A stretch of DNA of 64,000 nt from Cetorhinus maximus (Eukaryota), in NCBI RefSeq assembly GCF_964194155.1, contig NC_135903.1, positions 1,550,001-1,614,000 on the forward strand. Reading direction: 5' to 3'. The position numbers and the translations under genes are program-made. Positions 7,069 to 41,830 of the stretch are shown here, in pieces. The notes under the pieces are model-generated. The model searched no databases. It was not told where the DNA came from and saw nothing but the letters and a program-made list of their open reading frames with translations. Positions within the stretch are counted from its first letter, which is position 1; each line of letters starts with the position of its first letter.

Positions 7069-7161
7069 GGCGTGTGTTCTGAGTGCTGCAGCAGATCAGA
7101 GACTGAAGACTGGGAGTTCACATCAGTCGGTTTGAGAGAAGTGAGAGAAGAGGCAGAGACA

Positions 7162-7824: not shown

Positions 7825-9948
7825 AACATATTTGCAATGATCTTCTGTAAAATGTGAAAATTGTTATATGCAGAAATGAGATTCTGAGACCATGAAATGA
7901 AGGCATAACACTGAAAATTCATCTGTATAGTGTTGTTAACAGCATTCATGTGGATTATTTATATATGTGTTTTAAAGCAATAGATTTTGGAGCAATTTTA
8001 AAACAGTTTTAGAAAAGTAATGATGATGATTTCATTTATTAATTTCAAAAAACTAATATTATAAAAATCACAAACTGGACACATACTTCCCTTCACTTTC
8101 ACTAAATGCACTATTTTAATTTGGATAAACCTAAAACACAGAGAAAGAATTCTATATGTCAAGGTCTGCCTGCAGCTGAACTGAGTCCAGTAAAATAAAT
8201 GTAAAACTATTGCACAGATCTCTGTACAGCAATAGGCAAGGACATCGCTGTACCCAGAGCTATTCCTTGATTCCCTGCAGCCTCACAATGACTGGTAATA
8301 ACACCCTACCTTCCAACACAGACACCAGACTGGACGCCACTCATTTATTGGATGGTGGAAACCTCTTTCACTGGGGTTACTGGCAGGCAAAGCAAAGTTA
8401 CTTTAATCTTAAAACAATTTTTATGAAGTTTCAGTTAAATAACCTTACTAATCCTAAACTCTTGTAGTCTGTATCTTACAGTATCTGTATTATTTCTCAC
8501 AGTGTCAGCAGTTCTCATTTTTCAGTCAATTTACAGTATTACGGTGACTGACAAACAGCTCTGACAAAACATTCTTGACATCCTCACCAACCTGCCTGCT
8601 GCAGATGCATCTGTCCATGATAGGAAGTAGAGAGGGCTTTAAACTAAACAAGGTGGGGTGAGGGATCAAGCTTTGGGTAGAGGTAGCAATTCAAGGGGTA
8701 GATTCAAAGCAGGAGACCATAATAGCAATATGGGAAATGAGGGTCATAGAATAGCAGGAAGGGACAGAGAGATAAAACGTAAGAATACACCAAAAGTGAA
8801 GACTAGATGTTCCAAAGGTAACAAAAAGACAAGACTAAACGTTCTGTATCTGAATGCATGTAGCATTCATAACAAGGTAAATGAATTGATAGCGCACTTT
8901 GAAGTAAATAAATATTACAGAGTCATGGCTGCAGTATGACAAGGATTGGGTCCTTAATATTGAGGGGTATATGACATTCAAGAAGAATAGGAAACTAGGT
9001 AAAGGTGGAGGGGTAGCACTGTTAATCAAGGATGGCATTGGTGCAGTAATTAGAGATGACCTTGTTTCAGGAGATCAGGACGTAGAATCTATTTGGGTGG
9101 AGATGCAGAATAGGAGGGGGAAAAGAATCACTAGTGGGATTGGTCTACAGACCCACTAACAGTAACCACGCTGTAAGACGAAGTACACAAGAACAAATAT
9201 TGGGTGCATGTGATAAGGGGACAGTAATAATCATAGGTGATTTTAATCTACATTTAAAACTGGAAAAAGCAGATTGGCAGTAGTAGCCTGGATGAGGAGT
9301 TCAAGGAGCGCTTTCAAGATAGTTTCTTAGAGCAGCACGTTCTGGAACCAACCAGAGAGCAGGTTATATTAGACATGATATTGTGTAATGTGATAGGGTT
9401 AATTAATGACCGCAGAGTGAAGGCACCCTTAGGTAGCAGCGACCACAATATGATTGAATTTTACATCCAATTTGAAAGGGAGAAGAGTGGGTCTAAGACT
9501 AATATTTTAAACTTAAATGAGGGCAACTAAGTGGGCATGAAAGCTAAGCTAGCTGAAGTGAACTGGGATACCAGGCTAAGGGATAAAGCAGTAGAGAAGC
9601 AGTGGCAGACATTTATGGAGATATTTCAGAATACTCAGAATAAGTATGTTCCTATTCTCAAGAAAAATTCTAAGGAGAGAACCCACCATCCATGGTTAAC
9701 TAAAGAAGTTAAGGAAAGCATCAAACTTAGATTAAAAAATCATATAACCGTGCAAAGATGAGTGGCAGGTCAGACGATTGGTCTGAATATAACTAAAAGG
9801 TTAATCAGGAGAAAGAAATTAGAGTATGAGAGGAAGTTAGCTAGAAATGTAAAATTGGATAGCAAGAGTTTCTATAGGTATTTAAAAAGGAAAAGAGTAA
9901 GTAAATTGAGGTTTGGTCCTCTACAGAGTGATAATGTGGAGTTAATAA

Positions 9949-11147: not shown

Positions 11148-14100
11148 TCTAAGTGGTACTGAGCAAACTGATGGAGCTGCGGGCTGACAAGTCTCCGGGT
11201 CGTGATGGCGTTCATCCTAGGGTCTTAAAAGAGGTGGCTAATGAGGTAGTAGATGCATTAGTGTTAATATCATACGCGATAACTCCAAGTCAACAGCGTC
11301 GAGAGCCTACGGACTTTATCCTTTATTTTATAACGCCCATCCTCCAAAGTCCATCTCTGCAAAGAGACTCTATCTGCTAGATTCTGGAAAGGTTCCATCA
11401 GACTGGAAAGTAGCAAATGTAACCCCTCTGTTCAAGAAGGAGGGAGGCAGAAAACAGGAAATTATAGGCCAGTTAGCTTGATTTCTGTTGTAGGGAAGGT
11501 GTTAGAATCGATCATTAAGAAGGTTATAGCTGGGCACTTAGGGTAACTCGAGGAAATTGGGAAGAGTCAGCATGGTTTTGTGAAAGGGAAATCATGTTTA
11601 ACCAAATTATTGGAGTACTTTGAAGGTGTAACATGTACTCTGGATAAAGGGGAGCCTGTTGACGTGCTGCACTTGGATTTCCAGAAGGCATTTGGTAAGG
11701 TGCCACATCAAAGGTTATTGCGGAAAATAAAAGTTCCTGGTGTAGGGAGTAACATATTAGCATGGACAGAAGATTGGCTGGCTAACAGAAAATAGAGAGT
11801 ATGCATAAATGGGTCTTTATCTGATTGGCAGGATGTGACAAGTGGAGTCCCACAGGGGTCTGTGCTGGGGCCTCAACTTTTTATAATTTATATCAATGAC
11901 TTAGATGAGGGGAGTGAAGGCAAAATAGCTAAATTTTCAGGTGACACAAAGATAGGTAGGAAAATATGTTGTGAAGAGGAAAAAAGGAGGTTGCAGACGA
12001 ATATCGATAGGTTGAGTGAGTGGGCAAAAATCTGGCAGATTAAGTATAATGTGGGAAAATGTGAAGTTGTTCACTTTGGCAAGAGGAATAAAAAGCAGAG
12101 TATTACATAAATGGAGAACGGCTGCAGGATTCCGAGGTGCAGAGGGATCTAGGCGTCCTTGTGCATGAGCCACAAAAAGTTAGAGTGCAGGTACAGCAAG
12201 TAATTAAGAAGGCTAACGGAATGCTATCCTTTATTATGAGAGCAATTGAACATAAAACTAAGGATGTTATGCTTCAGTTACGGGGCATTGATAAGATCGC
12301 GTCTCGAATATTGTGTGCAGTTTTGGTCTCCTTATTTAAGGAAGGATGTAAATCGGTTATTGGTGGTAGGTTTACTAGATTGATAACTGAAATGAGCGGG
12401 TTGTCCAGGTAGACTGGGCTTGTTTCCACCGGAGATTAGAAGAGTGAGGGGTGACTTGATTGAAGTATATAAGATCCTGAACGGCCTTGACAAGGTGGAT
12501 GTGAAAAGGATGTTTCCTCTTGTGGATGAGTCCAGAACTAGGGGGCACTGTTTTAAAATTAGGGGTTGCCCTTTTAGGACAGAGATGAGGAGAATTTTTT
12601 TTCTCTCAGAGGGTTGTGCAACTTTGGAACTCTCTGCCTCAGAAGGTGGTGGAGGCGGGATCATTGAATATTTTTATATTTAATGGCGGTGGTAGATAGA
12701 TTTTTGGCAGGCAAGGGAATCAAAGATTATTGTGGGTAGATGGGAATGTGGAATTTGAAAGACAAACAGATCAGCCATAGTCTTATCAAATGGCGGAGCA
12801 GGCTCAAGGGGCCTACTTCTGCTCCTATTTCATATGTTCGTATTGGTAGGAGCAACTGTCACACAGCCCTTGTGGAAATGAAGTCCTGTCTTCACATTGA
12901 GCATAACTTCCATCGTGTTGTGTGGCAATACCGCTGTGCTAAATGGGATAGATTTCGAACAGATCTAGCATCTCAAGGCTGAGCAACCATGAGGTGCTGT
13001 GGGCCATCAGCAGCAGCAGAATTGTACTCAACCACAGTCTGTAACCTCATGGCCTGACAAATCCCTCACTCTACCATTACCATCAAGCCAGGGATCAACC
13101 CTGGAACAATGAAGGTGCAGGAGGGCATGCCAGGAGCAGCACCAGGCATACCTAAAAATGAGGTGTCAACCTGGTGAAACTATAACACAGGACTATTTGT
13201 GTGCCAAACAGCATAAGCAGCAAGCAATAGACAGAGCTAAGTGATTCCACAACCAACGGATCTAAGCTCTGCAGTCCTGCCACACCTAGGCATGAATGGT
13301 GGTGGACAATTAAATAACTCACTGGAGGAGGAGGCTCCACAAATATCCCCATCCTCAATGATTGGGGAGCCCAGCACATCAGTGCAAAAGACAAGGCTGA
13401 AGCATTTCCAACAATCTTCAGCCAGAAGTGCCACGTTGATGATCCATCTCGGCCTCCTCCAGAGGTCCCCAGCATCACAGATGCCAGTCTTCAGACAATT
13501 CAATTCACTACACGCGATATCAAAAAATGGCTGAAGGCACTGGATACTGCAAAGGCTATGGGCCCTGACAACCTAGCCAAGGTGAAACAGTACAGCTACA
13601 ACACTGGCATCTATCCAGCAATGTGGAAAATTGCCCAAGTATGTCCTGTACACAAAAAGCAGGCCAAATCCAACCTGGCCAATTACTGCCCCATCAGTCT
13701 ACTCTCAATCATCAGTAAAGTAGTGGAAGGGGTCATCAAAAGTGCTGTCAAGAGGCACTTGCTTAGCAATAACCTGCTCACTGACACTCAGTTTGGATTC
13801 TGCCAGGATCACTCAGCTCCTGACCTCACCTTGGTTCAAAGATGGATAAAAGAGCTGAACTCCAGTAGTGAGGTGAGAGTGACTGCTCTTGACATCAAAG
13901 CAGCATTTGACTGAGTGTGGCATCAAGGAGCCCTAGCAAAACTGGAGTCAATGGGAATCAAGGGGAAAACGCACCGCTGATTGGAGTCATATCTAACACA
14001 AAGGAAGATAGTTGTAATTGTTGAAGATCAATCATCTCAGTTCCAGGACATCACTGCAGGAGTTCCTCAGGGTAGTGTCCTCAGCCCAACCATCTTCAGC

Positions 14101-16120
14101 TGCTTCATCAATGACCTTTCTTCCATCATAAGGTCAGAAGTGGGGATGTTCGCTGATGATTGCACAATGTTCAGCACCATTTGCAACTCCTCAGATACTG
14201 AAGCAGTTCATGTCTAAATGCAGCAAGACCTAGACAATATCCAGGCTTGGGCTGACAAATGGTAATTTACATTCATGCCACACAAGTGCCAGGCAATGAC
14301 CATCTCCAACAAGAGAGAATCTAACCACTGGCATTACCGTGAATCCCCCGCTATCAACATCCTGGGGGTTACCATTGACCAGAAGCTGAACTGGACTAGA
14401 CTAGCCATATAAATACTGGGGTACAAAAGCAGGTCAGAGGCTAGGAATCCTGTGGCAAGTAACTAACCTCCTGACTCCCCACAAGGCACAAGTTAGGTGT
14501 GTGATGGAATTCTCTCCACTTGCCGGGATGAGTGCAGCTCCAACAACACTCAAGAAGCTTGATACCATCCAGGACAAAGCAGCCCATTTAATTCATACCC
14601 CATACACAAATATTTACTCCCTCCACCACTGACGCACAATGGTAGCAGTGTGTACCATTTACAAGATGCACTGCAGGGACTTACTAAGGCTCCTTAGACA
14701 GCACCCTCCAAATCTACAACTGCTACCTTCTAGAAGGGCAAGGGTAGCAAATGTATGGGAACACCACCACTTGCAAGTTCCCCTCCAAGCCACTCACCAT
14801 CCTGACATGGAAATATATGGCCGTTCCTTCACTGCTGCTGGGTCAAAATCCTGGAACTCCCTCCCTAACAGCATCGTGGGCGTGCCTATACCACATGGAC
14901 TGCAGCGGTTCAAGAAGACAGCTCACCACCACCTTCTCAAGGGCAATTAGGGATGGGCAATAAATGCTGGCCCAGCCAGCGACACCCACATCCCACAAAT
15001 GAATTTTTTAAATGCTCACATGTTTAAGTTGGTGCAGGACAGCAGGAAACATCAACAATCATATCACTGGCCCCATACAAAATGTGAGCAATGTGACAGG
15101 TGAGCTGCTAATAAAATAATAAATGTTGTAGAAAAGTAAACTCAGAATATGAATGTACACTAAAGTTTGAAAGTAGACACAGGGGAGAATAAAGATTCAT
15201 GTTGCAGTTGATAAGAGCTATTGTCTGTTATGGAAGCTGTCACTTAGCCATAAATAAAGTTATGATGTTGAGAATTTTACATCAACATCAAATGTATGCC
15301 CTTCGTTTTTAATAATTTAATGTAATACGATGGAAACTTACAAAGTTGCTACGTTCTATCAATAAACATGTCAAGGTCCATATTATGAGTCATTTTATCA
15401 GAGAGAAGACAAGCAGTTTTTTATTGTGAAGTGGAATGGGATGTCTGAAGGGTGGAAGAAGCAGATTCAACGCCGAATTTCCAAAGGGAATTGGTTACAT
15501 ACCCGAAAAGAAAGCATTTACAAAGCATACGGTTAGGGGATTGGAGCTGGGAATGATTGGACAGCTCTTTTAATGAGCTGTCACAGGCATGGTGGACTGA
15601 ATTGCTCCTTTTGTGTGGTGTGATTCGACATTTATTATTAATTGTCCATTTTGCAAATCTCATCAAAATTCTTAACTGGCAATTGGTTCTAATTGTTTTG
15701 AAGTGCACGGCAGGTTTATTTTTTAACTATTCTGTTTTTAAATATATTGTTACTGTTTAAAAATAAGCAAGAGTTTGGATTGATATAGTTCAGTAAAATG
15801 TTTTGATATTTTACATGCTTTAATTCAGTTTGAGGCAGATCTTTACATCTAGAATCTTTTTTCTGGCTTTTGAGTTAAACCAGATTAAAATGAGTGCCCT
15901 AACTGAGTGTGAAATGAGGTAAGTGCCTAGTTTTTTGCACTGTGCAATATTTTCTTTTTTATCATGTGAACAAGTTAAATCATAGATGTTACAATTTCAA
16001 CATGTTTATTCTTATAATGCATTTATATAAATAATCTACATGAACGCAAATGAAGACACTGTGAACAGTTCAATATGGATAAGAAGAAAACAAGAATGAG
16101 TTTTTAGCATATGACATCAT

Positions 16121-19108
16121 GGGCAGAATTTTCGCAGAATTGCACTAAGTGCGGTACTGGGCGGGTAAAATGGAGTCTTACCCGCCGACAAAAATGGCGG
16201 GTTTTCACACCATTTCTTCCCTAGCCCGCCTCATTATTTATGCATTCCCAGGAAACACGCCCTTCCATGGCGGGCAGGCTCTCATTTTCCCATTCGCTAT
16301 CACCCCGCTGTTGCATCACGCCGGCCGCCATCTTTAAAAGGCAGCCGCCAGCAAAGTGCTAATCGCCACCAGCTCATCACCATTGCCTGGGAGACATGGG
16401 CAGCAAAGGCAAAAAGACTCCAACCCCCCCCGCTTCACCAACAGGTCCCTCAAATGACTGCTGGATGCCATGGAGGCCCCCGGGATGTCTTCTACCCACG
16501 CTCTGGCCGTAGGATGGGTAGCAATGTCACTAACGCGGCTTGGGTGGCGGTGGCAACGATGGTCAGTGCGAATGTCCTGCACAGGAGGACAGCCACCCAG
16601 TGTCACAAAATGATGAATGATCTCCTCCATTCCGCCAGGGCAAGACACTCTTTTCATCACTCCCAACTCACGCACTCACAAACCCATCACACATCCATAG
16701 GGCCCTCACTCACTCACTGCCAGTGCAAAGGACATTAACATTCGCTCTTTCACATTGTCCTCATCCCGTCATTGTCCTCATCCCATCCATGGGACCACTC
16801 ACCAGCCACACAGGCCAGGCATACTTATCATCTGGCCCGGCAGGCATCCTGATACACTCTCCCCATCTCTATCCATGCAGGACAAACTGGTTCACAACAG
16901 GAGGGAAAGGTCACAGACAAGTGGAGGGATGCTGGGAATCAAAGTTCTGACAGAATTTGAAAATAGAACCAACCAGCTGGCCAGCGATGACTGGGACCTG
17001 TCCTGTGCTGACAGTGAGGTTGGAGCTGCTCTACCAAGTGAGGATCCAGCAGCGCAATATCCATCAGACAACCATGCCGTGAGTGATGTGTCCTCTTTCA
17101 CAGGCCACTGCCATGCACTAATTATCTCTCCTTGCTTTCGCAGGCACATCTGCTAAAGAGCTGACAGAGTCCATGACCCAGGGCCTCCAATCAAGCTCCA
17201 AAGAAAACTCTGAAGAGGAATCTGAAGACACCCTCCCTGAAGTCTTGTCACAACACTCACCCAGACCCTCCACCAGCGCAGAGACACACAGCTCGGTGGG
17301 ACCTAGCTTGAGAGTAGCCTCAGGATCACAATCTGGTGGGCACATCGCACTTTCTGATCCACAGCAGGCAGAGGCAGGGACTTCCCAGGTCCCCGGCATT
17401 CGGAGGAGCTGCTGGAGGCCAGAATGTTGTCGAGATCAAGTCAGGTGACGAGCCTCTGGACTCGGTTATGTCAGAGTTGCTGGAACTACAAAGGCAAGCT
17501 CGGGAACAACAGGGAGGGATGTCCGCTGCTCTCCTCAGAGTGTAAGGCACGATGGAGGAGTCCATCCATCTTCAGGCTGAGGTGATAGCGCCAGCACTGC
17601 CACGCACCAGGTCAACACTGGCTGGATGGTGGCTGCCATGGAGACCTTGGTCCAGGACGTCGCTCCTGCACTGCTGCACTAACTCCATCGCTGATGCCAT
17701 AATTGGCCTCCAACAGTGTGTACGCGAGAGGGGTGCTGGGCAGCTCGGTCTCACTCCAGCTACCCCTTCCGCTCACGGAGTCAGCTAGGGACCCTCGGGC
17801 ACCCATAGGGAGGAGGAACAGCAGGTGCACACTCTGGGGCCATCCACCCAGGTGACTCCGGGAATGACCGGCCCATCTGAATCCACTCTTCCTGTGACCT
17901 CCACAGATCCAGCTTCACAGGCCGAGGAGGGGCCACTGCCACACAGCAGGACCCCAAAAGCAGACCGGGGGCCCCCCAAGTCTCAGCCCTCCAGAGGATG
18001 CCCACCAAAGTCATCACAGACAGGGAGTCACAGTTAGCAGGCTGCCTCCACCTTTGCTGTGGATGTCCGGGGAGCACCAAGATGTAGTGGCAGGGTTAGG
18101 AAAGTTAGGTAAAGTAGTTGCACAGCCTGGCCACGGGTGTTGATCACTTGTACATACTGTTCACTATTGTCAATAAACTCCTATGAAGGTCGTCCAGCCT
18201 ATGGCTCCTTGTTCTGATGAGCAGTGTTCTTGACGCTCAGATGTGAAATCTTTCTGCACAAGATAAAAGGCAGGTGTCTCAGTCCAGGGCCTCTTCCCTG
18301 TGTCTGTGCAGCCTTTAGACCACAGTGATGGTCCAGCCTCTCACTCCCTGGAAACATTACTGATGCCTGCACCTCGGCGGTGCTGGTCATTGCTGCCAGA
18401 ACATAGTGGTCAGGCACCACAGAGTTCTCTCATTCTCTCTGTGTGCTCTCAGCACCTTTAAGGTGGGGCTGGCCCCCAACACACCAGCATCTGTGACCAG
18501 TGATGCTGTGCACCAGCTCCTGAAGGGCTGAGGTGCTGAAGGCGGACACAGCATCAGATGCATCTAAAGTTTCATGGCTGCATTTTTGAGATGGCCCTGA
18601 TCATGGAGCGTAAGTGAGCTGCCCTCGGCCAGACAGGAGTCAGACATTCTCAGAGGCCATGTGAAGATCTGTGGAGTGTCCTCATTGCATGTTGTCATCA
18701 TCCTCCTGCGATCGAGCGACTATTAGGGCCTCCACTGCATCTCCATGACAGGAGCATTCTCACAGTCAAACGTTCACAACTGCGAGGTGAGGATCTACAG
18801 GGATGCCTCACTGCAGGTCATCAACATCCTCCACAAATCTGGCAGCTATGAGGGCCTCCCGTCCTCGTCCGGCCAGTGTGAGAGCCTCATCCTTGCTGTC
18901 GTCACCACCGAGAACCCCCTCACCCTCATCTCCGTCGGCATTCTCCTCATCGGAGGAGACCTGCAGCTCCTCCTCAGCCAGCTCCTCTCCCCATTGCAGC
19001 ACCAGGTTGTAAAGGGCGCAGCAGACAATGACGATGTGTGACACCCTCTGCGGACTGTATTGCAGGGCTCCACCAGGCTGGTCCAGGCACCGGAACCACA
19101 TCTTCAGC
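16121..19108. mobile_element. Decayed, truncated PIF/Harbinger DNA transposon (Myb/SANT-like gene on +, transposase C-terminus on -)
   Basis: Terminus GGGCAGAATTTT at 16121; + strand AAWVAVATMVSA...RRTATQCHKMMNDL (Myb/SANT-like); - strand 18808-19110 MLKMWFRCLD..GGALQYSPQRVSHIVIVCCALYNL (HARBI1/DDE_Tnp_4 C-terminus); convergent two-gene layout. Confidence 0.85.
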
Positions 19109-19111
19109 ATC

Positions 19112-20400
19112 CAATTTCACAGTCAGAAAAAGAGTTCTCTATCAGTTTTGCAGCAGACCCAGTTGAAAGAGAAGATAAACATGGAGATGGTTAGGCTGAT
19201 TAACCAGTTGAATGGAAAAGAGGAGACATTGAAAGGAAAAGTTGTTCAGTTTGTCAAGCTGTGAGCAGATAATGAAGCCATAAGTAGCATGGCTACAGAA
19301 CTGAAACAGGTTAAGACTTCGCCGGAGACAGACCCGGCCAACAGTGAAAACAAAATGAAGGACAAGGACAAAGCTCCGCTGCTGATGGAGAAAGAAAAGA
19401 CAAAAATATGATTGAGAAATGTTAATCCAATGCTGAAGATTAAGAAACTAGAAAGAAAACCATTGGATGCCTCAAATTTACTGACAACCATTGAGTTGAT
19501 GAAAAATGAAATGTCTGAAATGAAAATTAAGAACCTAGAATGTCAAGAAAATGTTGAACAGTTCCAAGAGAAAGTACAAGTTCTCACAAAGGAGCTCAAA
19601 GAGTCTTAGAAACAACTAGCAGAAGCAAAATAAAAAAATGTGAGCTTGAAGGATAGCCCAGAGGAACTAGGCTCTGCTAAGGAGAAACTGTTCAGTGTAG
19701 ACAACCAACTTTCACGTATGGAAAATGAGCTTCCTAATGAAAAATTAGAACCTGATGAACTTCAAGGATCAGAAATCTCTATTAAGTATCAGGAAAAATG
19801 CCTGGAAAAGGAAAAGGAATTATTGATGAATCAGAACAGTTGGTTGAATGCAGAATTAACCACCAAAACTGATGAAAAGTTGGAATTTGATCATGAAAAG
19901 AGCAATGAAATTCTTGAAACAAAGGCAAAAAGTGCTGGAAAAACTCAGCAGGTCTGATAGCATCTGTGGAGATGCTGTTTTTGTTTCAGATTTCCAGCTT
20001 CCGCAGTATTTTGCCTTTATCTATAATGAAATTTTTGAATTTTGATCCAATCTGAGATGTGCAGTATAGAAGAGCAAATCCAGACTTTAAAAACAGAAGA
20101 ATAAAAATTTAAGAAACAGATTGAGGACATTACAAGTAGATTGAAAGAGTCTAAGGAGCAGTCAGTGACCATAGAAGAAAGACTCTGAAGGGACCTGAAT
20201 GCCCAGGTGAGGTTGTTGAGCCTGTATAAGGGTCTTGCAGAAAAGTCTGAGACAAAGACAACTGAACTCACCAGAGTAGTTGCTGAGCAAAATGAAAAGA
20301 TTAATCAGCTTGAAAACGAACTGGAAAATAAGACAGTAAACAAATATTTCACTAAAATTGTGAAACAAGTGAAAGTGTAGGTTCCATTTTTGAAATGTCA
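19112..20400 (+). pseudogene. Intronless, stop-interrupted coiled-coil frame with TPR (nuclear basket protein) N-terminal similarity
   Basis: DELQGSEISIKYQEKCLEKEKELLMNQNSWLNAELTTKTDEK..HEKSNEILE; QIEDITSRLKESKEQSVTIEE..DLNAQVRLLSLYKGLAEKSETKTTELTR; LENKTVNKYFTKIVKQVK*VPFLK all resemble recalled human TPR segments. Confidence 0.7.
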
Positions 20401-21014
20401 GCTTCCAGGAAGAACATGGCAGACCCTGTGGAGAAAGAAAGCCCGAGTCCACTCTGCGAGTGAGCAGAGCGAACATTCCCTCCGGAAGGAACGGGATAAG
20501 CCCATGGTATCCGATCAAAGAAGAAGGATTGACACAGAACAGCACAAGAGGCAAACCAGATGTTGAAACCCAAGTATTTGAAACACTGAATATTACAATT
20601 TCAATTCTTCACCAACAAAGTCAGCCCGAAGCAACTGAGACTCTACCACACCTCCGGATAGGAAGAGAATGAGATCTGAAAGAGTTGTAAAGCTTCCAGA
20701 CCACCTGAATTTGTAAAGTTAGAGACTTGGGGGAGAAGGGGTAGCATGGAAATATTACATTGTAAATATAGCGGGTAAGAACTTGAGGAGGTGTAGTATA
20801 AGGGTTAGTAAGGGTTAAGGTGGGACTAGAGAAACAGCACTGCCCACATTTTCATGTAGGAAGTCATATGATGATAGACTGTGTTTAGAGAGAGTTTGAG
20901 AGAAGGTGGCATGAAGGTAGGACCTAGACAGGGTTGTGTGTTAACAATAAACAGCTTATGTTCAACCATACAAGTCTCCAGACTCTTAGAGAGACAGCAA
21001 ACAACTCTACAACA
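20400..21014 (+). mobile_element. Gypsy-like LTR retrotransposon 3' end: pol tail, PPT and 3' LTR
   Basis: RSERVVKLPDHLNL* at ~20672-20716 (typical Gypsy integrase tail); purine tract GGGGGAGAAGGGG at 20729-20741; ~270-bp LTR with AATAAA at 20946 ending in ...CTACAACA; hsp30 spacer resumes at 21015. Confidence 0.65.
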
Positions 21015-22001: not shown

Positions 22002-22661
22002 TTAATTGTCCATTTTCACTTCCTCCTCATTTTTCCTCTCAGCTTTTCCACTCTCCAGTTTCGGTGCCTCTTGGCCAGGATTTAGCTGGGGACTGGTTGT
22101 TGTATCCGAGGTGATGTTGACGGGCACGGTTCGTTCATTCACAGCTGGCAGTGCCAGGCGTGGGGCTTGAACCTTTAACCGACCGTCCTGTGACAAACAG
22201 CAGTTAAGAGCTTCAGCATCGACATCTTCTGGCAGCTGAAATTCTCTCCTCAACTCTTCATATTTGTAGCTGGAAGAGCCGCTGCCATCATCACTTTTCT
22301 TCTCGTGTTTTCCTGTCACCAGCACTTTTCTTCCAAGTACTTTCACATTCAGTTCTTCTGGGGAGAATCGCTGGACATCCAGGGACAGAGAAAAGCCATT
22401 TCCCTCCTTGTCCTCTGATTGTCTTTTACCTTCTTCATTATCATCAGGTTTGTTGTCCTGATTTCTTGGTTTTTCCTCCCAAAATTCTTTTGCCAGCTCC
22501 TCAAGAACTCGCTCCATGAAGTTCATGCTCTTTCTCACTTCTTCAACCTGTTTCCACGTGTTGCATCCAAGCGGCTCCCAGACCCTGTGTGGAACAGGCC
22601 ACAATGTGTACACAGGCTGCTGGCACCGACGTGAAGGGTGGAAAGCCCGACAGCTCAGCAT
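22002..22661 (-). CDS. hsp30: Hsp30-type sHSP copy 3, 219 aa
   Basis: Intact ACD ORF from MLSCR. Confidence 0.92.
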   Translation of the reverse strand: MLSCRAFHPSRRCQQPVYTLWPVPHRVWEPLGCNTWKQVEEVRKSMNFMERVLEELAKEFWEEKPRNQDNKPDDNEEGKRQSEDKEGNGFSLSLDVQRFSPEELNVKVLGRKVLVTGKHEKKSDDGSGSSSYKYEELRREFQLPEDVDAEALNCCLSQDGRLKVQAPRLALPAVNERTVPVNITSDTTTSPQLNPGQEAPKLESGKAERKNEEEVKMDN

Positions 22662-22754
22662 TGTCTCTGCCTCTTCTCTCACTTCTCTCAAACTGACTGA
22701 TGTGAACTCCCAGTCTTCAGTCTCTGATCTGCTGCAGCACTCAGAACACATGCC

Positions 22755-22922
22755 TTATATATTCTACTCCCAGAAACCCAGACATTTCCAGAATGAACTC
22801 AACTTTGCTGGACTCATGACACGTGAGCTGCAAATAAATGACATCTCATCCCAGCCTTGCTTTAAACAAGAATGACTCGACTCAGTGACACCCACTGGAG
22901 CCGTTCCAGAGACTTCTGGAAT
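22755..22922 (-). promoter_or_regulatory. hsp30 copy 3 promoter (TATA and HSEs)
   Basis: Same TATA/HSE module; distal HSE at 22903-22922. Confidence 0.85.
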
Positions 22923-25093
22923 GTACTCAGCCAGTGAGGGAATAGATGGGAGGAACAATGTTAGTGACTGACAGCCTAGCAGCAGGTATAGCAAGTGCAG
23001 GAAAGTGAGATTTTCAGAGAACCAGATGTGTTTAGCATAATGAAATAGAAACTAATATCATGAGAGAATGAGGAGACAGTCTTCAGCTTTCTAGTTTAAC
23101 TCTTTTCAATGATTTTTAAGATATTAAAGTGATATTGAGCAGAATGAGAAGGAATGAAATTCAAATCAGTTTGGATTAGGTGAAGTGAAGTTCTGATTCT
23201 ATCCCAGAGGGTGGCATAGTCCCTTATACTGTTGATAGTATATATTTAGAAATGAAATTGTTATAAATAAAGCTGCCGTGCACCTCAAAATAAAACTTGT
23301 TGTCCGTTGTGTGTTTTGATATATGATTTGCAAATATAGAAAATTAATAATAAATTACCAACAGATCTAGAATCTCTCAACTCAAAATGAGGCCATTCAG
23401 TCCACCACACCTGTGTCAGCCCTTTGAAAGTGCTATCCAATTAGGCTCTTTCACCTAAACTCAGCAAATTATTGCAGGTATATATCTTTTTCCATTTTGA
23501 AAGTTGCCATTGAATCTACCCTTTCACTTCTTCCATTCCAGTAACAAAAAACAACACAAATGAAAACTGCTCATCTTCCCTCTGGTCTCTTCACTGATAA
23601 CATCAACATTGACAACACATTATTGATAAAATGTAGCAATGTTTTAATTTTCTAATGTTTTATATTAAATTCATGAATATGAAGGCCCAGCCTATTAATG
23701 TGGTCGCCAAGTTCTCAACATCATAACTTCCTAAATTGGTAAATGACAGTTTCCATCACACACAGGAGTTTCCTATAAACTGCAACATAAATGTTTATTC
23801 TCAGGTGTGTTTTGGCAGCATTACGATCAAATAGATTCCAGGTTCAGTATAAGTTCATGGTCAGAATTTACATTTTTACACCATTTAACATTTTGACTAA
23901 TAAATAAACTGTGGCATTGCTCATGTATTCCACAAACTGTGATATGATTGTTGATGTTTCCCACTGCCAGCATCAACCTAAACACATGAGCTATTTCTCC
24001 ATCAGCATAATCCACTAAATTTGCTGAAGGAATATAACTGCTGACTGACACTGCAAGAAATATTACGCATCACACTGATCCAGTAAGATACAGATCCCTG
24101 TATTCTTTGGGGCTGGACAGGATAGAGGCTGAGGATCATACCCCTTGGTGGGAAATCAGGATCTTGGGAGCACTTTAAAAATAAGAGGTCTGGCATTTAA
24201 GGTGGAGATACAGAGAAATGTCTCAGAGGGACATTTGTGATTGGAACTCTCTTCCACAGTGAGCAGGAGAGCTGGGTCTTTGAGTATATTCAAGGCTGTT
24301 AGATGGATTTTGGATTGACAATGGAGTCAAGGGTTGTGGGGAGCAGAGAGGAAGGTGGAATTACGGCCAGAATTAGGTAAACCGTGATGTAATTGAATGG
24401 TGCAGGAGGCTCGGGGGGCTGAATGGCCTACGCATGCTCCCATTCTTCATGTTCTTATGTTCAGTAGTACAGGATCAGTAATATTATTTCACACAAACTT
24501 TATAAAAGTTGGTTACAATGCAAGTAACTTTGCTTTTACTCCCAATTATTTAAATTGAACAGGTAACCCCAATGAAAGAGGATTCCACCATCCAATAAAT
24601 GACTGGTGTCCAGTCTGGTGTCTGTGTTGGAAGATAAGCTGTTGTTGCTGCTCATTGTCAGGCTGCAGGGTAATACAGAGATTTGGTGCACTGGGTCCTG
24701 GCAATAGTTTGATATATTTTTTAATGAGCTGAGTTCAATTTCAGGCAGATCTTGACATAGGGAATTCTTCCTCTGGGTTTTAGGGGAATCCAAACTAAAA
24801 TGTGTTTTTCTTCACTGAGAATACAGGAACTAAGTGTCTAGTTTTTCAGTTATGTCGTATTAGTTTCTTTATACGAAGGAAAAAATCTGAATCATCACTA
24901 TTATATTCAAAAGTATTTATTTTTCCAAGTACATATCTATAAAAATAATCCACATGAATGCTGGTAATAGTGCAGTACAGAAACACAATTTAATAATTCA
25001 TTTTCAGATTTTGCCTTCATAACATTGTCTCAGAAATTCATTTCTGCACATAAAGAATTCTTAGATCTTACAGAAGATAGTAGTAAATGAGTT

Positions 25094-25753
25094 TTAATTG
25101 TCCATTTTTACTTCCTCCTCAATTTTCTTCGCATCCTTCCCACTCTCCAGTTTCGGTGCCTCTTGGCCAGGATTTAGCCGGGGACTGGTTGTTGTATCCG
25201 AGGTGATGTTGACGGGCACGGTTTGTTCATTCACAGCGGGCAGTGCCAGGCGTGGGGCTTGAACCTTTAACCGACTGTCCTGTGACAAACAGCAGTTAAG
25301 ATCTTCAGCATCGACATCTTCTGGCAGCTGAAATTCTCTCCTCAACTCTTCATATTTGTAGCTGGAAGAGCCGCTGCCATCATCACTTTTCTTCTCGTGC
25401 TTTCCTGTCACCAGCACTTTTCTTCCAAGTATTTTTACCTTCAGTTCTTCTGGAGAGAATCGCTGGACATCCAGGGACAGAGAAAAGCCATTTCCCTCCT
25501 TGTCCTCTGATTGTCTTTTACCTTCTTCATTATCATCAGGTCTCTTGTCCTGATTTCTTGGTTTTTCCTCCCAAAATTCTTTTGCCAGCTCCTCAAGAAC
25601 TCGCTCCATGAAGTTCATGCTCTTTCTCGCTTCTTCCACCTGTTTCCACGTGTTGCATCCAAGCGGCTCCCAGACCCTGTGTGGAACAGGCCACAATGTG
25701 TACACAGGCTGCTGGCACAGACGTGAAGGGTGGAAAGCCCGACAGCTCAGCAT
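25094..25753 (-). CDS. hsp30: Hsp30-type sHSP copy 4, 219 aa
   Basis: Intact ORF; private changes LKVKIL, AEDL, LSQDSRL, NEQT. Confidence 0.9.
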   Translation of the reverse strand: MLSCRAFHPSRLCQQPVYTLWPVPHRVWEPLGCNTWKQVEEARKSMNFMERVLEELAKEFWEEKPRNQDKRPDDNEEGKRQSEDKEGNGFSLSLDVQRFSPEELKVKILGRKVLVTGKHEKKSDDGSGSSSYKYEELRREFQLPEDVDAEDLNCCLSQDSRLKVQAPRLALPAVNEQTVPVNITSDTTTSPRLNPGQEAPKLESGKDAKKIEEEVKMDN

Positions 25754-25846
25754 TGTCTCTGCCTCTTCTCTCACTTCTCTCAAACCGACTGATGTGAACT
25801 CCCAGTCTTCAGTCTCTGATCTGCTGCAGCACTCGAACACACGCCT

Positions 25847-26013
25847 TATATATTCTACTCCCAGAAACCCAGACATTTCCAGAATGAACTAAAGTTTGCT
25901 GGGCTCATGACACGTGAGCTGCAAATAAATGACATCTCATCCCAGCCTTGCTTTAAACAAGAATGACTCGACTCAGTGACACCCACTGGAGCCGTTCCAG
26001 AGACTTCTGGAAT
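25847..26013 (-). promoter_or_regulatory. hsp30 copy 4 promoter
   Basis: TATA and HSEs; distal HSE at 25994-26013. Confidence 0.85.
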
Positions 26014-27902
26014 GTATTCAGCCAGTGAGGGAATAGATGGGAGGAGCAATGTTAGTGAGTGACAGCCTAGCAGTAGGTATAGCAAGTGCAAGAAAGTGAG
26101 TTTTATGAGGAGCCGGATCTGTTTGTCCTAATGAAATGTAAACTGATTTTGTGAGGGAATGATGAATCATTCTGGCTTTCTAGTATTGCTCTTTTCAATG
26201 GTTTTTGCGATACTAAAGTGATATTTAACGATGAAAAAGAGTGAAATTCAAATCAGGTTCGTTTAAGTGAAGTTCGGATCAAGGCTTTGGTTCCGTTCTA
26301 TTCGTAATGACATATGTTTAAAAATGGAATAGTTACAAATAAAGCTGCTGTGCATTTCAAAGTTACTAAAACCTGTTGTCTGTTGTGTTTTGACATGAGA
26401 TTTTCAAATATTAAAAATTAATATAAATTACCGATTGATCTAGAATCTCTCAGCTCAAAATGAGGCCATTCGGTCCACCATGTCTGTATCAGCGCTTTGG
26501 AAGTGCTATCCAATTACTCCTAACTTCCCTGCTCTTTCGCCAAAACTCTGCAAATTATTTCTTTGCAGGTATATATCCTTTTCCATTTTGGATGTTGCTA
26601 TTTAAGTTTTCACATCTTCCACTCCAGTACCAGAAAACCACACAAATCAAAACTGCTTGTCTACCCTCTGGTCTCTTCACGGATAAAATCAACATTGATA
26701 ACATATTATCAATGAAATATAGCAATGTGTTAACTTTCTACTGTATTATATTAAATTCTTAAAAATGAATGGTCTACCATTAATGTTGTTGCAAAGCTCC
26801 TAACTTCCTAAATTGTTAACTGACAGTTTCCATCATACACAAGAATGTCCTCCAATCTGCAAAATAAATCTTTATTCCCAAGGTATCTTGGCAGCATTAT
26901 GATGAAATGGATTCCAGATTCAATATAAGTTTATAGCCTGATTTTACATTTTTACACCATTTAACATTTTAACTAATAAATAAGCTGTGGCGTTGCCCAT
27001 GTATTCCACAACCTGTGATGCGACTGTTGATGTTTCCCACTGTCCAGCATCAACTAAACACACGAGCGGTTTGTCCGTCAGTATCATACAGTAAATTCAC
27101 TGAGGGAACATTACTGCTGAGAGACACTGCAAGAAATATTACACACCATACAGATCCAGTCAGATACAGATCTCTTCTTGAAATGTGTAAGATTTTGTGG
27201 GGCTGGACATGGTAGATGCTGAAAGGATGCTCCCCCTCATGGGGTCACCAGGAACTATGTGGAGGATTAAACATAGGAGCTGTGCAATTTAAGATGAAGA
27301 TGAAGCAAAATTTCTTCTCTCAGAGAGTCGTTAATGTTCGAAATTTTCTTCCCCAGAGACCAGTGGAGACTGGGTCATTGAATATATTCACAGCTGTTTG
27401 ACAGATGTTTGACAGACAATGGAGTCAAGTGTTATGGGGGGACAGACAGGAAAGTTTAGATAAGGCCCCAATCAGATCAGTCATGATCTAATTGAATGGT
27501 GAAGGAGGGGATCGTGGGGCAGAATGACCTACGCCTGTTCCTATTCTTTGTGTTCTTCTGTTCAGGGGGGCAGAATTAGTAATATTATTTCACTGAAACT
27601 TTATAAAAGTTGCTTACAATGCAACTAACTTTGCTTTTCCTCCCAGTTATTCATATTGAATAGATAACCCCAATGAAAGAGGATTCCACCATCCAGGAAT
27701 TGAGTGGTGTCCAGTCTGGTGTCTGTGTTGGAAGATAAGCTGTTGTTGCTGCTCATTGTCAGGCTGCAGGGTAATACAGAGATTTGGTGCACTGGGTCTG
27801 TGCAATAATTTGATATATGTTTTAACGAACTGAGTTCAATTTCAGACAGATCTTGACATAGAGAATTCTATCTCTGGGTTTTAAATTAATTCTAGTTAAA
27901 AT

Positions 27903-28476
27903 GCCCTGAATTTTTGGGATGACAGGGAAAGGCGCACTAGTTGCACGAAGATTCCTGGGACTAAGACCCTGGAAGTGCAGCAAGAGGTGTCAGGGGTCCG
28001 GGTGGAGCTGGTAGGGGAGGCTTGGAGAGTCACGATGGGGGGGATCGGGATCTCGGATGATAGGCCGGCAGGGGAGGGAGGTCCAGAGGTCACCAGGCCC
28101 ACAGGAGAGGGCACCTGCAGTCAGAAGAGGGCTTCTGATGTGAGTCACCCACCAGCCCCCTTCCCACCCGAGATCAAAATCTCTTCATTTACGAGTTTTC
28201 CCACCTGAGCTGTCATCAGCGCGCCAGCCTAAAGATTGAGGTTGGCAAGAAACAGCCCTGAACTGGCATTAAGGGCCTTAGCTGGGGTAAGGCCAGGCTT
28301 GCACTCTGAACCCATGCCCGACCCAGCATAAAATCAGTGAAAGGTCGGGGCAGGCAGGACCCGAAGGGAATCCGTCCATCCAATGACACGCTCGCCCCCC
28401 ACCCCCACACCCCCCCCACCCACCCCCCACACCGTCTCAGCTCCCGCTGGGCATGGAGGAGCGTAAAATTCTGGCC
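27903..28476. mobile_element. Non-autonomous Harbinger-like MITE in the spacer
   Basis: Termini GCCCTGAATTTT / AAAATTCTGGCC (imperfect TIR resembling the terminus at 16121), flanked by AAT. Confidence 0.65.
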
Positions 28477-28762
28477 AATGTGGTTTTTTTTTACTGAGTG
28501 TAAAGGAAGTAAGTGTCTAGTTTTTCAGTTTAATTTTTTATGAAGTGAAAAAGCGAAATCATCATTTTTTTCAAAAGTATTTAATGTTCCAAAATAAATA
28601 TATATAAAAATAATCCACACGAATGCGGCTAACAACACAGTTCAAACATACAAGATCAAAACAATTAATTTTCAACATTATGCCTTCAAATCATAGTCTC
28701 AGAAACTCATTTCTGCATATCACCCATTCTTACATCGTGCAAAAGATAAATGTAATTGAGGT

Positions 28763-29425
28763 TTAATTGTCCATTTTTACTTCCTGCTCTTCCTGGTTCC
28801 CCTCATTCTTTCCACTCTCCAGTTTCGGTGCCTCTTGGCCAGGATTTAGCCGGGGACTGGTTGTTGTATCCGAGGTGATGTTGACGGGCACGGTTCGTTC
28901 ATTCACAGCTGGCAGTGCCAGGCGTGGGGCTTGAACCTTTAACCGACCGTCCTGTGACAAACAGCAGTTAAGAGCTTCAGCATTGACATCTTCTGGCAGC
29001 TGAAATTCTCTCCTCAACTCTTCATATTTGTAGCTGGAATAGCGGCTGCCAACATCACTTTTCTTCTCATGTTTTCCTGTCACCAGCACTTTTCTTCCAA
29101 GTACTTTCACATTCAGTTCTTCTGGGGAGAATCGCTGGACATCCAGGGACAGGGAAAAGCCATCTCCCTCCTTGTCCTCTGATTGTCTTTTACCTTCTTC
29201 ATTATCATCAGGTCTCTTGTCCTGATTTCTTGGTTTTTCTTCCCAAAATTCTTTTGCCAGCTCCTCAAGAACACGTTCCATGAAGTTCATGCTCTTTCTC
29301 GCTTCTTCCACCTGTTTCCAACTGTTGCATTCAAGCGGCTCCCAGACCCTGTGTGGAACAGGCCACAATGTGTACACAGGCTGCTGGCACAGACGTGAAG
29401 GGTGGAAAGCCCGACAGCTCAGCAT
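28763..29425 (-). CDS. hsp30: Hsp30-type sHSP copy 5, 220 aa
   Basis: Intact ORF; shares NSW, GDG and DVGSRYSS with copy 2. Confidence 0.92.
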   Translation of the reverse strand: MLSCRAFHPSRLCQQPVYTLWPVPHRVWEPLECNSWKQVEEARKSMNFMERVLEELAKEFWEEKPRNQDKRPDDNEEGKRQSEDKEGDGFSLSLDVQRFSPEELNVKVLGRKVLVTGKHEKKSDVGSRYSSYKYEELRREFQLPEDVNAEALNCCLSQDGRLKVQAPRLALPAVNERTVPVNITSDTTTSPRLNPGQEAPKLESGKNEGNQEEQEVKMDN

Positions 29426-29518
29426 TGTCTCTGCCTCTTCTCTCACTTCTCTCAAACCGACTGATGTGAACTCCCAGTCTTCAGTCTCTGATCTGCTGCA
29501 GCACTCAGAACACACACC

Positions 29519-29686
29519 TTATATATTCTACTCCCAGAAACCCAGACATTTCCAGAATGAACTCAACTTTGCTGGGTTCATGACACGTGAGCTGCAAATA
29601 AATGACATCTCATTCCAGCCTCGCTTTAATCAAGAATGACTTGACTCAGTGACACCCACTGGAGCCGTTCCAGAGACTTCTGGAAT
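29519..29686 (-). promoter_or_regulatory. hsp30 copy 5 promoter (with a perfect AP-1 site)
   Basis: TATA and HSEs; TGACTCA at 29642-29648. Confidence 0.85.
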
Positions 29687-31064
29687 GTACTCAGCCAGTG
29701 AGGGAACAGATGGGAGGAACAATGTTAGTGAGTGACAGCCTAGCAGCAGGTATAGCAAGTGCAAGAAAGTGAGTTTCGTGAGGAGCCGATCTGTTTATGC
29801 GAATGAAATGTAAACTGATATTATGGGAGAAGGCTGAGTCCATCTTTAGCTTTCTATTTTTATTGATTTTGGCGATATTAAAGCGATTTTTAACTGTGTA
29901 ATAGAGTGAAATTCAAATCTGTTTGTTTTCAGTGAAGTTCGGATTGAGATGTTAGTTCTGTTCTATTCATAATAACATGTTTAAAAATGAATTATTTACA
30001 GATAAAGCTGCTGTGCACTTTAAAGTTACTAAAATCTGTTGTCTGTTATGTGTTTTGATATGAGATTTTCAAATATTAAAAATTAATATAAATTACCGAT
30101 TGATCTAGAACCATTTAACATTTTAACTAATAAATAAGCTGTGGCATTGCCCATGTATTCCACAACCTGTGATACGAATGTTGATGTTTCCCACTGTCCA
30201 GCATCAACCTGAACACACGAGCTGTTTGTCCGTCAGTATCATCCAGTAAATTTACTGAGGAAACATTACTGCTGCCTGTCTGCAAGAAATATTACACACC
30301 ATACTGATACAGGAAGATACAGATCCCTTATTGAAATGTGCAAGATTCTTTGGGGATTGACAGGGTAGCTGGTGAGAGGATGATCCCCCTCAGGGGGAAT
30401 CAGGAACTAGGTGGCAGTTTAAAAATAAGAGCTGTGCCATTCAAATGAAGATCAGGAGAAATTTCTTCTCTCAGAGGATCGCCAGTGTTCTCACTTTTCT
30501 TCCCCAGTGAGCAGTGTCAGGCTGGGTCATTGAATATATTCACAGCTGTTTGACAGATGTTTGACAGACAATGGAGTCAAGTGTTATGGGGGGACAGACA
30601 GGAAAATGGAGGTAAGGCCACAATCAGATCAGTCATGATCTAACTGAATGGTGAAGGAGGGGATCGTGGGGCAGAATGGCCTGCGCCTGTTCCTATTGCT
30701 AATGTTCTTATGTTCAGGGGGACAGGATCAGTAATATTATTTCACTGAAACTTTATACAAGTTGCTTACAATGCAACTAACTTTGCTTTTCCTCCCAGTT
30801 ATTCATATTGAATAGATAACCCCAATGAAAGAGGATTCCACCATCTAGTAATTGAGTGGTGTCCAGTCTGGTGTCTGTGTTGGAAGATAAGCTGTTGTTG
30901 CTGCTCATTGTCAGGCTGCAGGGTAATACAGAGATTTGGTGCACTGGGTCTGTGCAATCATTTGATAAATGTTTTAACGAACTGAGTTCAATTTCAGACA
31001 GATCTTGACATAGAGAATTCTTTCTCTGGGTTTTAAATTAATTCTAGTTAATTCTAGTTAAAAT

Positions 31065-31623
31065 GCCCTGAATTTTTGGGATGACAGGGAAATGCGCACT
31101 AGCTGCGCGAAACTTCCTGGGACTAAGACCCTGGAAGTGGAGCAAACGGTGTCAGGGGTCTGGGTGGGGAAGGTAGGGAAGGCCTGGGGAGTCGTGATGG
31201 GGGGGATCGGTCTCTCGGACGATAGGCCGGCAGGGGAGGGAGCACCAGAGATCACCAGGCACACAGGAGAGGGCACCTCCAGTCAGAAGGGGGCTTCTGA
31301 TGTGAGACACCCACCAGCCCCCTTCCCACCCGAGATCAAAATCTCTTCATTCATGGATTTTCCCACCTGAGCTGTCATCAGCGCGCCAGCCTAAAGATTG
31401 AGGTTGGCAAGAAACGGCCCTTAACTGGCATTACGTGGCTACTGAAGGACCTTAACTGGGGCAAGGTCAGGTTTCTCCTCTGAGCCCCTGTCCGCCCCAG
31501 AGTAAAATTGCTGCAAGGTCGGTCCTCTCAGGAACCCAGAGGGAATCCGTCCATCCAATTACACGTTTCACCCCACCCCTACCTCAGAAACCGCTGGGCG
31601 TGGGGGAGTGTAACATGTTCGCC
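31065..31623. mobile_element. Harbinger-like MITE, copy duplicated with the spacer
   Basis: Homologous to 27903-28476 at the same spacer position. Confidence 0.65.
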
Positions 31624-31915
31624 AATGTGTTTTTTTACAGAGCGTACAGGAAGTAAGTGTCTATTCTTTCAGTCGTTTAATATCGGTTTCTTTTTATGAA
31701 GTGAAAAAACAAAATCATCATTTTTTTCAAAAGCATTTATTGTTGAGAAAAAATATATAAAAATAATCCACATGAACGCGGCTAACAGCACAGTTCAAAC
31801 ATACAATATCAAAACAATTAATTTATACCATTATGCCTTCATAATATAGTCTCAGAAACTCATTTCTGCATATCACCCATTCTTACATCGTACAAAAGAT
31901 AAATGTAATTGAGGA

Positions 31916-32578: not shown

Positions 32579-32671
32579 TCTCTCTGCCTCTTCTCTCACT
32601 TCTCTCAAACTGACTGATGTGAACTCCCAGTCTTCAGTCTTTGATCTGCTGCAGCACTCAGAACACACGCC

Positions 32672-32839
32672 TTATATATTCTACTCCCAGAAACCCAGAC
32701 ATTTCCAGAATGAACTCAACTTTGCTGGGTTTATGACACGTGAGCTGAAAATAAATGACATCTCATCCCAGCCTTGCTTTAAACAAGAATGACTCGACTC
32801 AGTGACACCCACTGGAGCCGTTCCAGAGACTTCTGGAAT
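32672..32839 (-). promoter_or_regulatory. hsp30 copy 6 promoter
   Basis: TATA and HSEs; distal HSE at 32820-32839. Confidence 0.85.
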
Positions 32840-36236: not shown

Positions 36237-36329
36237 TGTCTCTGCCTCTTCTCTCACTTCTCTCAAACCGACTGATGTGAACTCCCAGTCTGCAGACTCT
36301 GATCTGCTGCAGCACTCAGAACACACACC

Positions 36330-41737: not shown

Positions 41738-41830
41738 TGTCTCTGCCTCTTCTCTCACTTCTCTCAAACCGACTGATGTGAACTCCCAGTCTTCAGTCTC
41801 TGATCTGCTGCAGCACTCAGAACACACGCC

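What the first reader, a model, noticed from the sequence alone, without database searches (positions are those of the whole stretch)
19112..21014. LTR retroelement remnant apparently carrying a captured TPR nucleoporin coiled-coil
Seen: one decayed frame (the ORFs at 19028, 19412 and 19640 are co-frame) continues past a small palindromic insertion (19921-20016). It gives three peptide blocks resembling the TPR N-terminal coiled coil, joined without introns and with an internal deletion. It runs straight into a Gypsy-type pol tail (RSERVVKLPDHLNL*), a PPT and an LTR. Divergence from recalled TPR looks far higher than expected for a recent retrocopy of such a conserved gene. Known: TPR forms the nuclear-pore basket that retroelement RNAs and integration complexes traverse. 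Inference: an LTR family that transduced a host nucleoporin fragment and evolved it as cargo.
Basis: partly seen in the sequence, partly recalled or inferred. Interest (0 to 1): 0.7.

Follow-up and report, generated by a model that had tools for sequence, protein, structure and literature searches.

The report
Shark retrotransposons carrying host coiled-coil mosaics
This is a dead, half-deleted copy of a repeated shark LTR retrotransposon whose single reading frame is stitched from pieces of three host coiled-coil genes (UACA, ninein and the nuclear-pore protein TPR), likely captured by template switching and likely kept as an open frame rather than for a TPR-specific job.

Summary
Window 19661-20402 is spliced TPR mRNA (five exon junctions kept, three in-frame deletions), but 19105-19666 comes from two other host genes, UACA and ninein. 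The locus is the decayed 3' half of a dispersed non-autonomous LTR family in a shark genome (paired LTRs, 5-bp target duplications, tRNA-Leu primer site, no RT found). At least 149 non-host TPR-domain loci exist (150 of 150 scored, 1687 candidates), on three different gag backbones. Shared deletion breakpoints point to one TPR capture later swapped between element families. Across copies, one frame of about 850 codons (family A) and one of about 925 (family B) stayed free of shared stops and frameshifts (0-2 stops against 9 expected; 0 frameshifts against 9). Amino acids drifted near-neutrally (stratified omega 0.72, not significant). Family A lacks TPR's Nup153-binding residues, and cargo-free relatives are also abundant. 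So capture and amplification are shown, and selection for an open frame is likely. A nuclear-pore function is not supported. The kind is known (LTR-mediated retroposition, maize Bs1); the scale, the backbone swapping and the coiled-coil-only cargo are new.

The parts
19105..19306 (+). UACA coiled-coil fragment (end of the captured UACA piece, about aa 1137-1209); the rest of the element upstream is missing in this copy
   Evidence: tblastn E 2.5e-14 to P0004; 85% nt to host exon G000:C27:11440482-11443208
19307..19433 (+). in-frame linker of about 35 codons of unassigned origin, plus the diverged start of the ninein piece
   Evidence: shared by family copies; ninein match starts earlier in other copies
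19434..19666 (+). ninein coiled-coil fragment (about aa 1190-1266 of P0155)
   Evidence: profile hit E 9.5e-34, 12 of 12 hits ninein; 80% nt to host exon G000:C19:43869056-43870765
19661..19918 (+). TPR mRNA, host CDS nt 292-382 joined to 493-666 (117-nt in-frame deletion)
   Evidence: PF25481 E 5.4e-16; 80-84% nt to the host exons
19919..20039 (.). private insertion of a very abundant short palindromic repeat, with a 15-bp target duplication (19904-19918 / 20025-20039)
   Evidence: absent from the other copies; target duplication; very high depth
20040..20402 (+). TPR mRNA, host CDS nt about 667-931, 1009-1068 and 1244-1325 (96- and 186-nt in-frame deletions); ends near aa 442
   Evidence: 77-82% nt; junction microhomology with the element backbone at 20398-20402
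20398..20716 (+). backbone 3' tail, inherited from cargo-free gag-protease relatives; ends in an integrase-tail-like motif; cargo frame stops at 20636
   Evidence: 70-80% nt to L226, L229, L230, L236; E 1e-22; terminal motif to family D tail E 3e-4; stops
20785..20791 (+). polypurine tract next to the LTR (a second purine run lies at about 20729-20742)
   Evidence: sequence
20792..21014 (+). 3' LTR, TG...CA, 223 bp
   Evidence: matches both ends of full-length copies

Best explanation
The window holds the decayed 3' half of a dispersed shark LTR element whose one long frame joins a gag-like start to fragments of host UACA, ninein and spliced TPR, likely captured by template switching in particles made by an unidentified helper element, and likely retained because the element needed an open frame rather than TPR's nuclear-pore function. 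Shown: cargo identity, intron loss, LTR anatomy, amplification, the same TPR piece on three gag backbones, and the absence of shared stops and frameshifts. Inferred steps: (1) A cargo-free, RT-less gag-protease element co-packaged host mRNA, and reverse transcriptase switched templates at short homologies. (2) A-rich, heptad-periodic coiled-coil mRNA offers in-frame switch points 53-81% of the time instead of 33%, so it is the cargo that most often passes an open-frame filter. (3) One TPR capture was trimmed and recombined into other element families. (4) Translation to near the 3' LTR was needed for RNA stability or packaging, or a generic helical rod on Gag was tolerated, so stops were purged while residues drifted. 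(5) All families examined are long dead, and copies decay neutrally.
For: Cargo. LTR anatomy: LTR pairs in 13 of 30 family A loci; 5 exact 5-bp target duplications read by eye; primer site TGGTGGCAG matching tRNA-Leu. Junction microhomologies. Single capture: A and C share the 96- and 186-nt deletions, B and C share the 201-nt deletion; D/E/F are basal, A has support 100, B+C support 95. Open frame: family A has 1 majority-stop column (TGA 15, CGA 6, CAA 4, a CpG site) in about 850 codons against about 70 in each other frame, 31 copies. Family B has none in about 925 codons, 21 copies. Stops 0-2 against 9.1 expected, p<=0.006; fixed frameshifts 0 against 8.7 expected, p 2e-4. Weak residue constraint: stratified omega 0.72, transitions p 0.09, transversions p 0.76; private variants omega about 1.0. 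In-frame bias of microhomologies. Cargo-free relatives: 20 of 20 protease-sampled loci lack the three cargoes and pol.
Against: Unstratified between-family omega is 0.28-0.54. Fixed transversions are more conservative than private ones (BLOSUM 0.43 against -0.19, p 0.001), and changes to proline are rarer (2 of 148 against 70 of 1626, p 0.08), though host-lineage changes are mixed into that count. Some protein-level selection is therefore possible. The neutral yardstick is genomic decay, not RT error. TPR's persistence on three backbones is unexplained by an open-frame rule alone. Why the frame had to be open was not tested, the helper element was not found, and whether cargo-free relatives keep their frame open was not tested.
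Confidence: 0.6

Rival explanations
1. The Gag-coiled-coil fusion was a selected accessory protein: the TPR N-terminal rod (alone or with UACA and ninein) oligomerised or positioned Gag, or paired with host TPR and loosened nuclear retention of unspliced element RNA.
For: The same TPR core sits in frame after gag or protease on three backbones. It overlaps the N-terminal part used in oncogenic TPR fusions, and TPR restrains export of unspliced retroviral RNA (PMC3258255). Mildly conservative substitutions. 13 of 20 gag-sampled loci carry TPR.
Against: Stratified omega 0.72, not significant. Different families delete different parts. Heptad-phase keeping in 7 of 8 deletions is matched by the microhomology null. 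Nup153-binding residues L458 and M489 lie beyond the family A, B and D pieces. Family G carries ninein without TPR.
Confidence: 0.2
2. Pure hitch-hiking: captures and deletions were in frame by microhomology bias, and a few lucky master elements amplified with no selection on the frame at all.
For: The in-frame null is 0.53-0.81, so 8 of 8 in-frame deletions has p 0.02-0.15 only. Cargo-free relatives are abundant. Residue drift is near neutral.
Against: It does not explain 0-2 stops against 9.1 expected and 0 frameshifts against 8.7 expected after more than 100 lineage substitutions, replicated in two families.
Confidence: 0.12
3. Camouflage at RNA level: host-like sense sequence of needed genes shielded the element from small-RNA silencing.
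For: Proposed for plant elements that capture essential genes (review PMC13317346, passages). The cargo is in sense orientation and comes from scaffold genes.
Against: It predicts conservation of nucleotide identity to the host, yet synonymous divergence from host is 0.39-0.58, and it does not need an open frame.
Confidence: 0.06
4. A LINE-made TPR processed pseudogene that landed in an LTR remnant by chance.
For: Intron loss alone fits.
Against: At least 149 dispersed loci, identical internal junctions across copies, cargo replacing backbone sequence at a microhomology, target duplications outside the LTRs.
Confidence: 0.01

Closest known systems
LTR-mediated retroposition in metazoans (Tan et al. 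2016, PMC5131818; passages seen)
   Same: Partial mRNAs replace internal element ORF, microhomology at switch points, several parental genes in one locus, and further copying as a non-autonomous element.
   Different: Those cases are young or low-copy retrocopies. Here there are at least 149 TPR loci on three backbones, old (LTR-pair mismatch medians 0.12-0.18), with the frame kept open over lineage evolution.
Maize Bs1 (as described in PMC5131818 passages and PMC13317346 section 5)
   Same: An LTR element with a hybrid ORF built from fragments of three host genes.
   Different: Bs1 has 1-5 copies and enzyme or transporter fragments. This is a vertebrate, high-copy case with only coiled-coil scaffolds, and the cargo moved between element families.
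Non-autonomous Ty3/Gypsy elements; Mag-like (families A, D, G) and Gmr1/SCAN-like (B, C) labels are recalled
   Same: TG...CA LTRs, tRNA primer site, PPT, 5-bp target duplication, gag with CCHC and protease motif, integrase-like tail.
   Different: No RT to place them in a clade. Pol is replaced by host coiled coils fused in frame.
Oncogenic TPR fusions (TPR-MET, -RAF, -TRK; PMC3258255 passages)
   Same: An N-terminal TPR coiled-coil piece fused in frame to a foreign protein; B and D end near aa 233-238.
   Different: Here TPR lies C-terminal to gag, is internally deleted, and no oligomerising function was tested.

Membership tests
LTR retrotransposon (non-autonomous) | paired LTRs with TG...CA ends | tested here: met
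   13 of 30 family A loci with LTR pairs; termini; only the 3' LTR in the window
LTR retrotransposon (non-autonomous) | primer-binding site and polypurine tract | tested here: met
   TGGTGGCAG-like run after the 5' LTR in the 14 copies the motif scan returned; complementary to tRNA-Leu ends; PPT
LTR retrotransposon (non-autonomous) | target-site duplication outside the LTRs | tested here: met
   5 exact and at least 3 one-mismatch 5-bp duplications read by eye; a stricter script caught only 4 copies, 1 exact
Ty3/Gypsy | RT phylogeny and PR-RT-RH-IN order | tested here: inconclusive
   no RT in any element examined; the protease motif precedes and the integrase-like tail ends the internal region in family D
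Ty3/Gypsy | gag capsid / CCHC | tested here: inconclusive
   Family B: SCAN E 1.1e-8 over cut-off, CCHC E 0.0014 below it. Family A: only a gag-like N-terminus; Atlas lead 0.87, E 2.4e-7 to family D gag, no Pfam hit
LTR-mediated retrocopy (template switch) | intron-less host mRNA replacing internal element sequence | tested here: met
   5 TPR exon junctions kept; backbone resumes at 20398; the UACA and ninein pieces lie within single exons, so splicing cannot be seen for them
LTR-mediated retrocopy (template switch) | microhomology at switch points | tested here: met
   ninein/TPR and TPR/backbone junctions; exact 8-13 nt at 5 of 8 deletion junctions, 2-4 nt at the other 3; no simulation of chance was run for the two fusion junctions
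Functional TPR-like nuclear-basket protein | Nup153-binding region (L458, M489) | tested here: not met
   A ends near aa 442, B and D near 233-238, C near 462; residues from PMC3258255; human-to-shark numbering offset inferred
Functional TPR-like nuclear-basket protein | strong purifying selection on residues | tested here: inconclusive
   omega 0.28-0.54 unstratified, 0.72 stratified and not significant
LINE-mediated processed pseudogene | single insertion with poly(A) and its own target duplication | tested here: not met
   no poly(A) at the TPR 3' junction; shared junctions across dispersed copies

The most novel reading that the evidence does not exclude
Shark Gypsy-type parasites evolved a Gag-fused accessory rod from host scaffold proteins. 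One captured TPR coiled coil proved useful enough to be passed between three unrelated gag backbones and extended with ninein and UACA, acting as an oligomeriser or as a decoy of the nuclear-basket checkpoint on unspliced RNA.
Probability: 0.2. Interest if true: 0.85.

Novelty: new variant of a known kind. Interest (0 to 1): 0.62.

Why it matters
Gene capture by LTR elements is known mostly from young or low-copy cases. Here captured host exons became a standing part of several high-copy vertebrate element families and moved between them. The many dead copies give a built-in neutral control, so the question of whether captured cargo is selected, and for what, can be tested by counting. The answer so far is 'for an open frame, weakly for residues'. 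It also offers a mechanistic reason why coiled-coil mRNAs are easy cargo. For annotation, shark genomes may hold hundreds to over a thousand false TPR, UACA and ninein paralogue hits.

Tried and rejected
PRC1/MAP65 as the source of the family B tail: Atlas lead 0.91 with low recognition, no support against the two host loci or the PDB; source unknown. Fold of the family A gag-like N-terminus: pLDDT 58, best Z 5.1, uninformative. In-frame deletions and heptad phase as proof of selection: largely matched by the microhomology null. Comparison of two family A subfamilies: too few differences for power. Dating by TPR residues against whale shark and birds: too few sites. Helper element: no pol in 20 gag-sampled or 20 protease-sampled loci. 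Protein representatives: none of the best 150 carries TPR, UACA or ninein. Expression: no RNA holder listed. Orthology of this insertion in organism B: not established, no contig spans a flank. PDB search with the window TPR piece: nothing. Earlier findings of this scan: none.

Full report
Setting. The window lies at G000:C26:1550001-1614000 in a 3.99-Gb genome. Its TPR gene is 94% identical to whale-shark TPR over 501 aa, so the host is a shark. The finding sits between a Harbinger-type remnant (left end 16121, no right end found; DDE hit below cut-off) and a tandem cluster of HSP20-family genes.

Is the TPR match real? Yes. 19634-19918 hits PF25481 at E 5.4e-16, above the cut-off. A protein search returned 3 hits among 127 candidates, all TPR. 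Whale-shark TPR aa 93-356 aligns at E 2.6e-48. The host gene, with introns, is on C18, and eight exon matches line up in order with the window element. At nucleotide level the window carries host CDS nt 292-382, 493-931, 1009-1068 and about 1244-1325 at 77-84%, keeping five exon-exon junctions. It is therefore mRNA-derived.

Not only TPR. The upstream coiled coil of a fuller copy hit one protein among 499 candidates, a UACA-like protein (E 6.7e-37). The next segment, searched as an alignment of 8 natural pieces, gave 12 hits, all with ninein names or ninein domains (best E 9.5e-34). Both host exons were found in G000 and match the window at 19105-19306 (85%) and 19434-19666 (80%). About 35 codons between them remain unassigned. 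The ninein/TPR and TPR/backbone junctions show short shared sequence.

The element. A DNA search scored 40 of 5542 candidates; the best paralogue is 86% identical. Full copies (family A, 30 loci plus the window) are about 4 kb: LTR, primer site, gag-like N-terminus, UACA, ninein, TPR, tail, PPT, LTR. LTR pairs were found in 13 of 30. Exact 5-bp target duplications were read by eye in L115, L143, L157, L158 and L159; a stricter script caught only 4 copies, 1 exact. The primer site matches tRNA-Leu ends. The gag label for family A rests on an Atlas lead (0.87) and E 2.4e-7 to family D gag; Pfam and folding gave nothing. The tail and LTR are shared at 70-80% with cargo-free gag-protease elements: 20 of 20 loci sampled by protease lacked the three cargoes and pol. 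Family A therefore likely derives from an already RT-less parent. The window copy lacks its 5' half, has 15 stops in 512 codons, and carries a private 121-nt insertion with a 15-bp target duplication.

A wider radiation. PF25481 gave 1687 candidates; 150 of 150 scored passed the cut-off, one being the host exon. Some are near-identical duplicates, and candidates are not copy numbers. Of 60 loci taken from the top of that list, 9 were family A, 30 B, 11 C, 5 D and 5 unassigned. B and C have a SCAN/CCHC gag and protease-like region fused to TPR, with 1.0-1.3 kb LTRs; one natural 669-codon stretch holds SCAN, CCHC and the TPR domain together. D has a different gag and protease fused to TPR, then an integrase-like tail. 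A and C share the 96- and 186-nt deletions, and B and C share a 201-nt one. A tree of 79 copies plus host (rows under 80% covered and one duplicate left out) puts D/E/F near the host, A at support 100 and B+C at 95. One capture followed by recombination between backbones is the simplest reading. The root is the host alone and the segment is 282 nt, so this is inference. Sampling without TPR bias, by the family A gag, 18 of 20 loci carried some cargo: UACA 16, TPR 13, ninein 8. Three further loci carry a different ninein piece without TPR.

Age. Median LTR-pair mismatch is 0.16 (A, 13 of 30), 0.12 (B, 19 of 35), 0.18 (C, 5 of 11) and 0.14 (D, 3 of 5). Terminal branches are 0.08-0.11. The ninein piece is closer to sharks (0.65-0.76) than to rays (0.53-0.60), so capture likely followed that split. 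A second species has contigs at least 88% alike over the cargo and LTR bins; whether this very insertion is shared was not established.

Was the cargo selected? For an open frame, likely yes. In 31 family A copies, one frame from the gag-like ATG through all three cargoes (about 850 codons) has one column where most copies carry a stop, a decayed CpG (TGA 15, CGA 6, CAA 4), against about 70 in each other frame. In 21 of 35 family B loci with enough coverage there is none in about 925 codons. With private variants as the neutral yardstick, 9.1 fixed stops were expected and 0-2 seen, and 8.7 frameshifting deletions were expected and none was fixed. For residues the signal is weak. Private variants give omega about 1.0 and between-family values are 0.28-0.54, but with transitions and transversions separated the ratio is 0.72 (p 0.09 and 0.76), and UACA transversions look neutral (29:3 against 457:51). 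Against my reading, fixed transversions are more conservative (p 0.001) and proline changes rarer (p 0.08), with host changes mixed in. All 8 shared deletions are in frame and 7 of 8 keep heptad phase, but microhomologies in these mRNAs are in frame 53-81% of the time and in phase 54-83%. That is weak evidence of selection. It does suggest why coiled-coil mRNAs are easy cargo.

Nuclear-pore idea. TPR restrains export of unspliced retroviral RNA and needs L458 and M489 for Nup153 binding (PMC3258255, passages). Family A ends near aa 442, B and D near 233-238, and C near 462, so none holds the whole site. A decoy or oligomeriser role remains open but has no direct support.

What is known. Template-switch capture by LTR elements, including multi-gene chimeras and further copying, is described (PMC5131818, passages). 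Maize Bs1 fuses three host fragments at 1-5 copies (same paper; PMC13317346 passages and section 5). Eight searches of the open-access library (listings only for the other papers) showed no report of TPR, UACA or ninein capture by shark elements. Subscription journals, Repbase and Dfam were not searched, and no supplements were read. The clade names Mag and Gmr1 are recalled.

Verdict. Capture, mosaic structure and amplification are shown. Selection for an open frame is likely. A TPR-specific function is possible but unsupported. New variant of a known kind; interest 0.62.

Noticed in passing
window 22002-41968 (minus strand), 1633-2707 and 6600-7865 (plus strand): Tandem cluster of HSP20-family (HSP30-like, name recalled) genes: six copies about 3.1-5.5 kb apart plus two inverted copies, 88-98% alike.
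   Followed up: no
window 16121-19110: Harbinger-type remnant with a left end but no right end; one deletion likely removed its right part and the LTR element's 5' half.
   Followed up: partly
L215-L217 (C23:5732638; C3:177759823; C3:176987310): Related elements carrying a different ninein piece (aa 1048-1162) without TPR; L215 shows gag and protease, L216 the same kind of tail; likely a separate ninein capture.
   Followed up: partly
L037:7829-8464; L106 about 5587-5940: Family B and C tails after TPR (about 200-300 codons, in frame in B) have no identified source and may be further captured genes.
   Followed up: partly
L222-L241: Large group of about 3.3-kb cargo-free, RT-less gag-protease LTR elements (4320 candidates) sharing LTR and tail with family A.
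   Followed up: partly
window 20729-20791: Two purine runs before the LTR; the first resembles the family D PPT and LTR start, suggesting an old LTR replacement.
   Followed up: no
G000:C24:952713, 3491975, 6344414, 13467281; C1433, C215, C1272: Family B TPR hits with identical or near-identical scores (L043 and L108 are 99% alike), likely segmental duplication rather than recent transposition.
   Followed up: partly
window 11796-14950: Decayed LINE-type reverse-transcriptase fragments upstream of the finding (family recalled).
   Followed up: no
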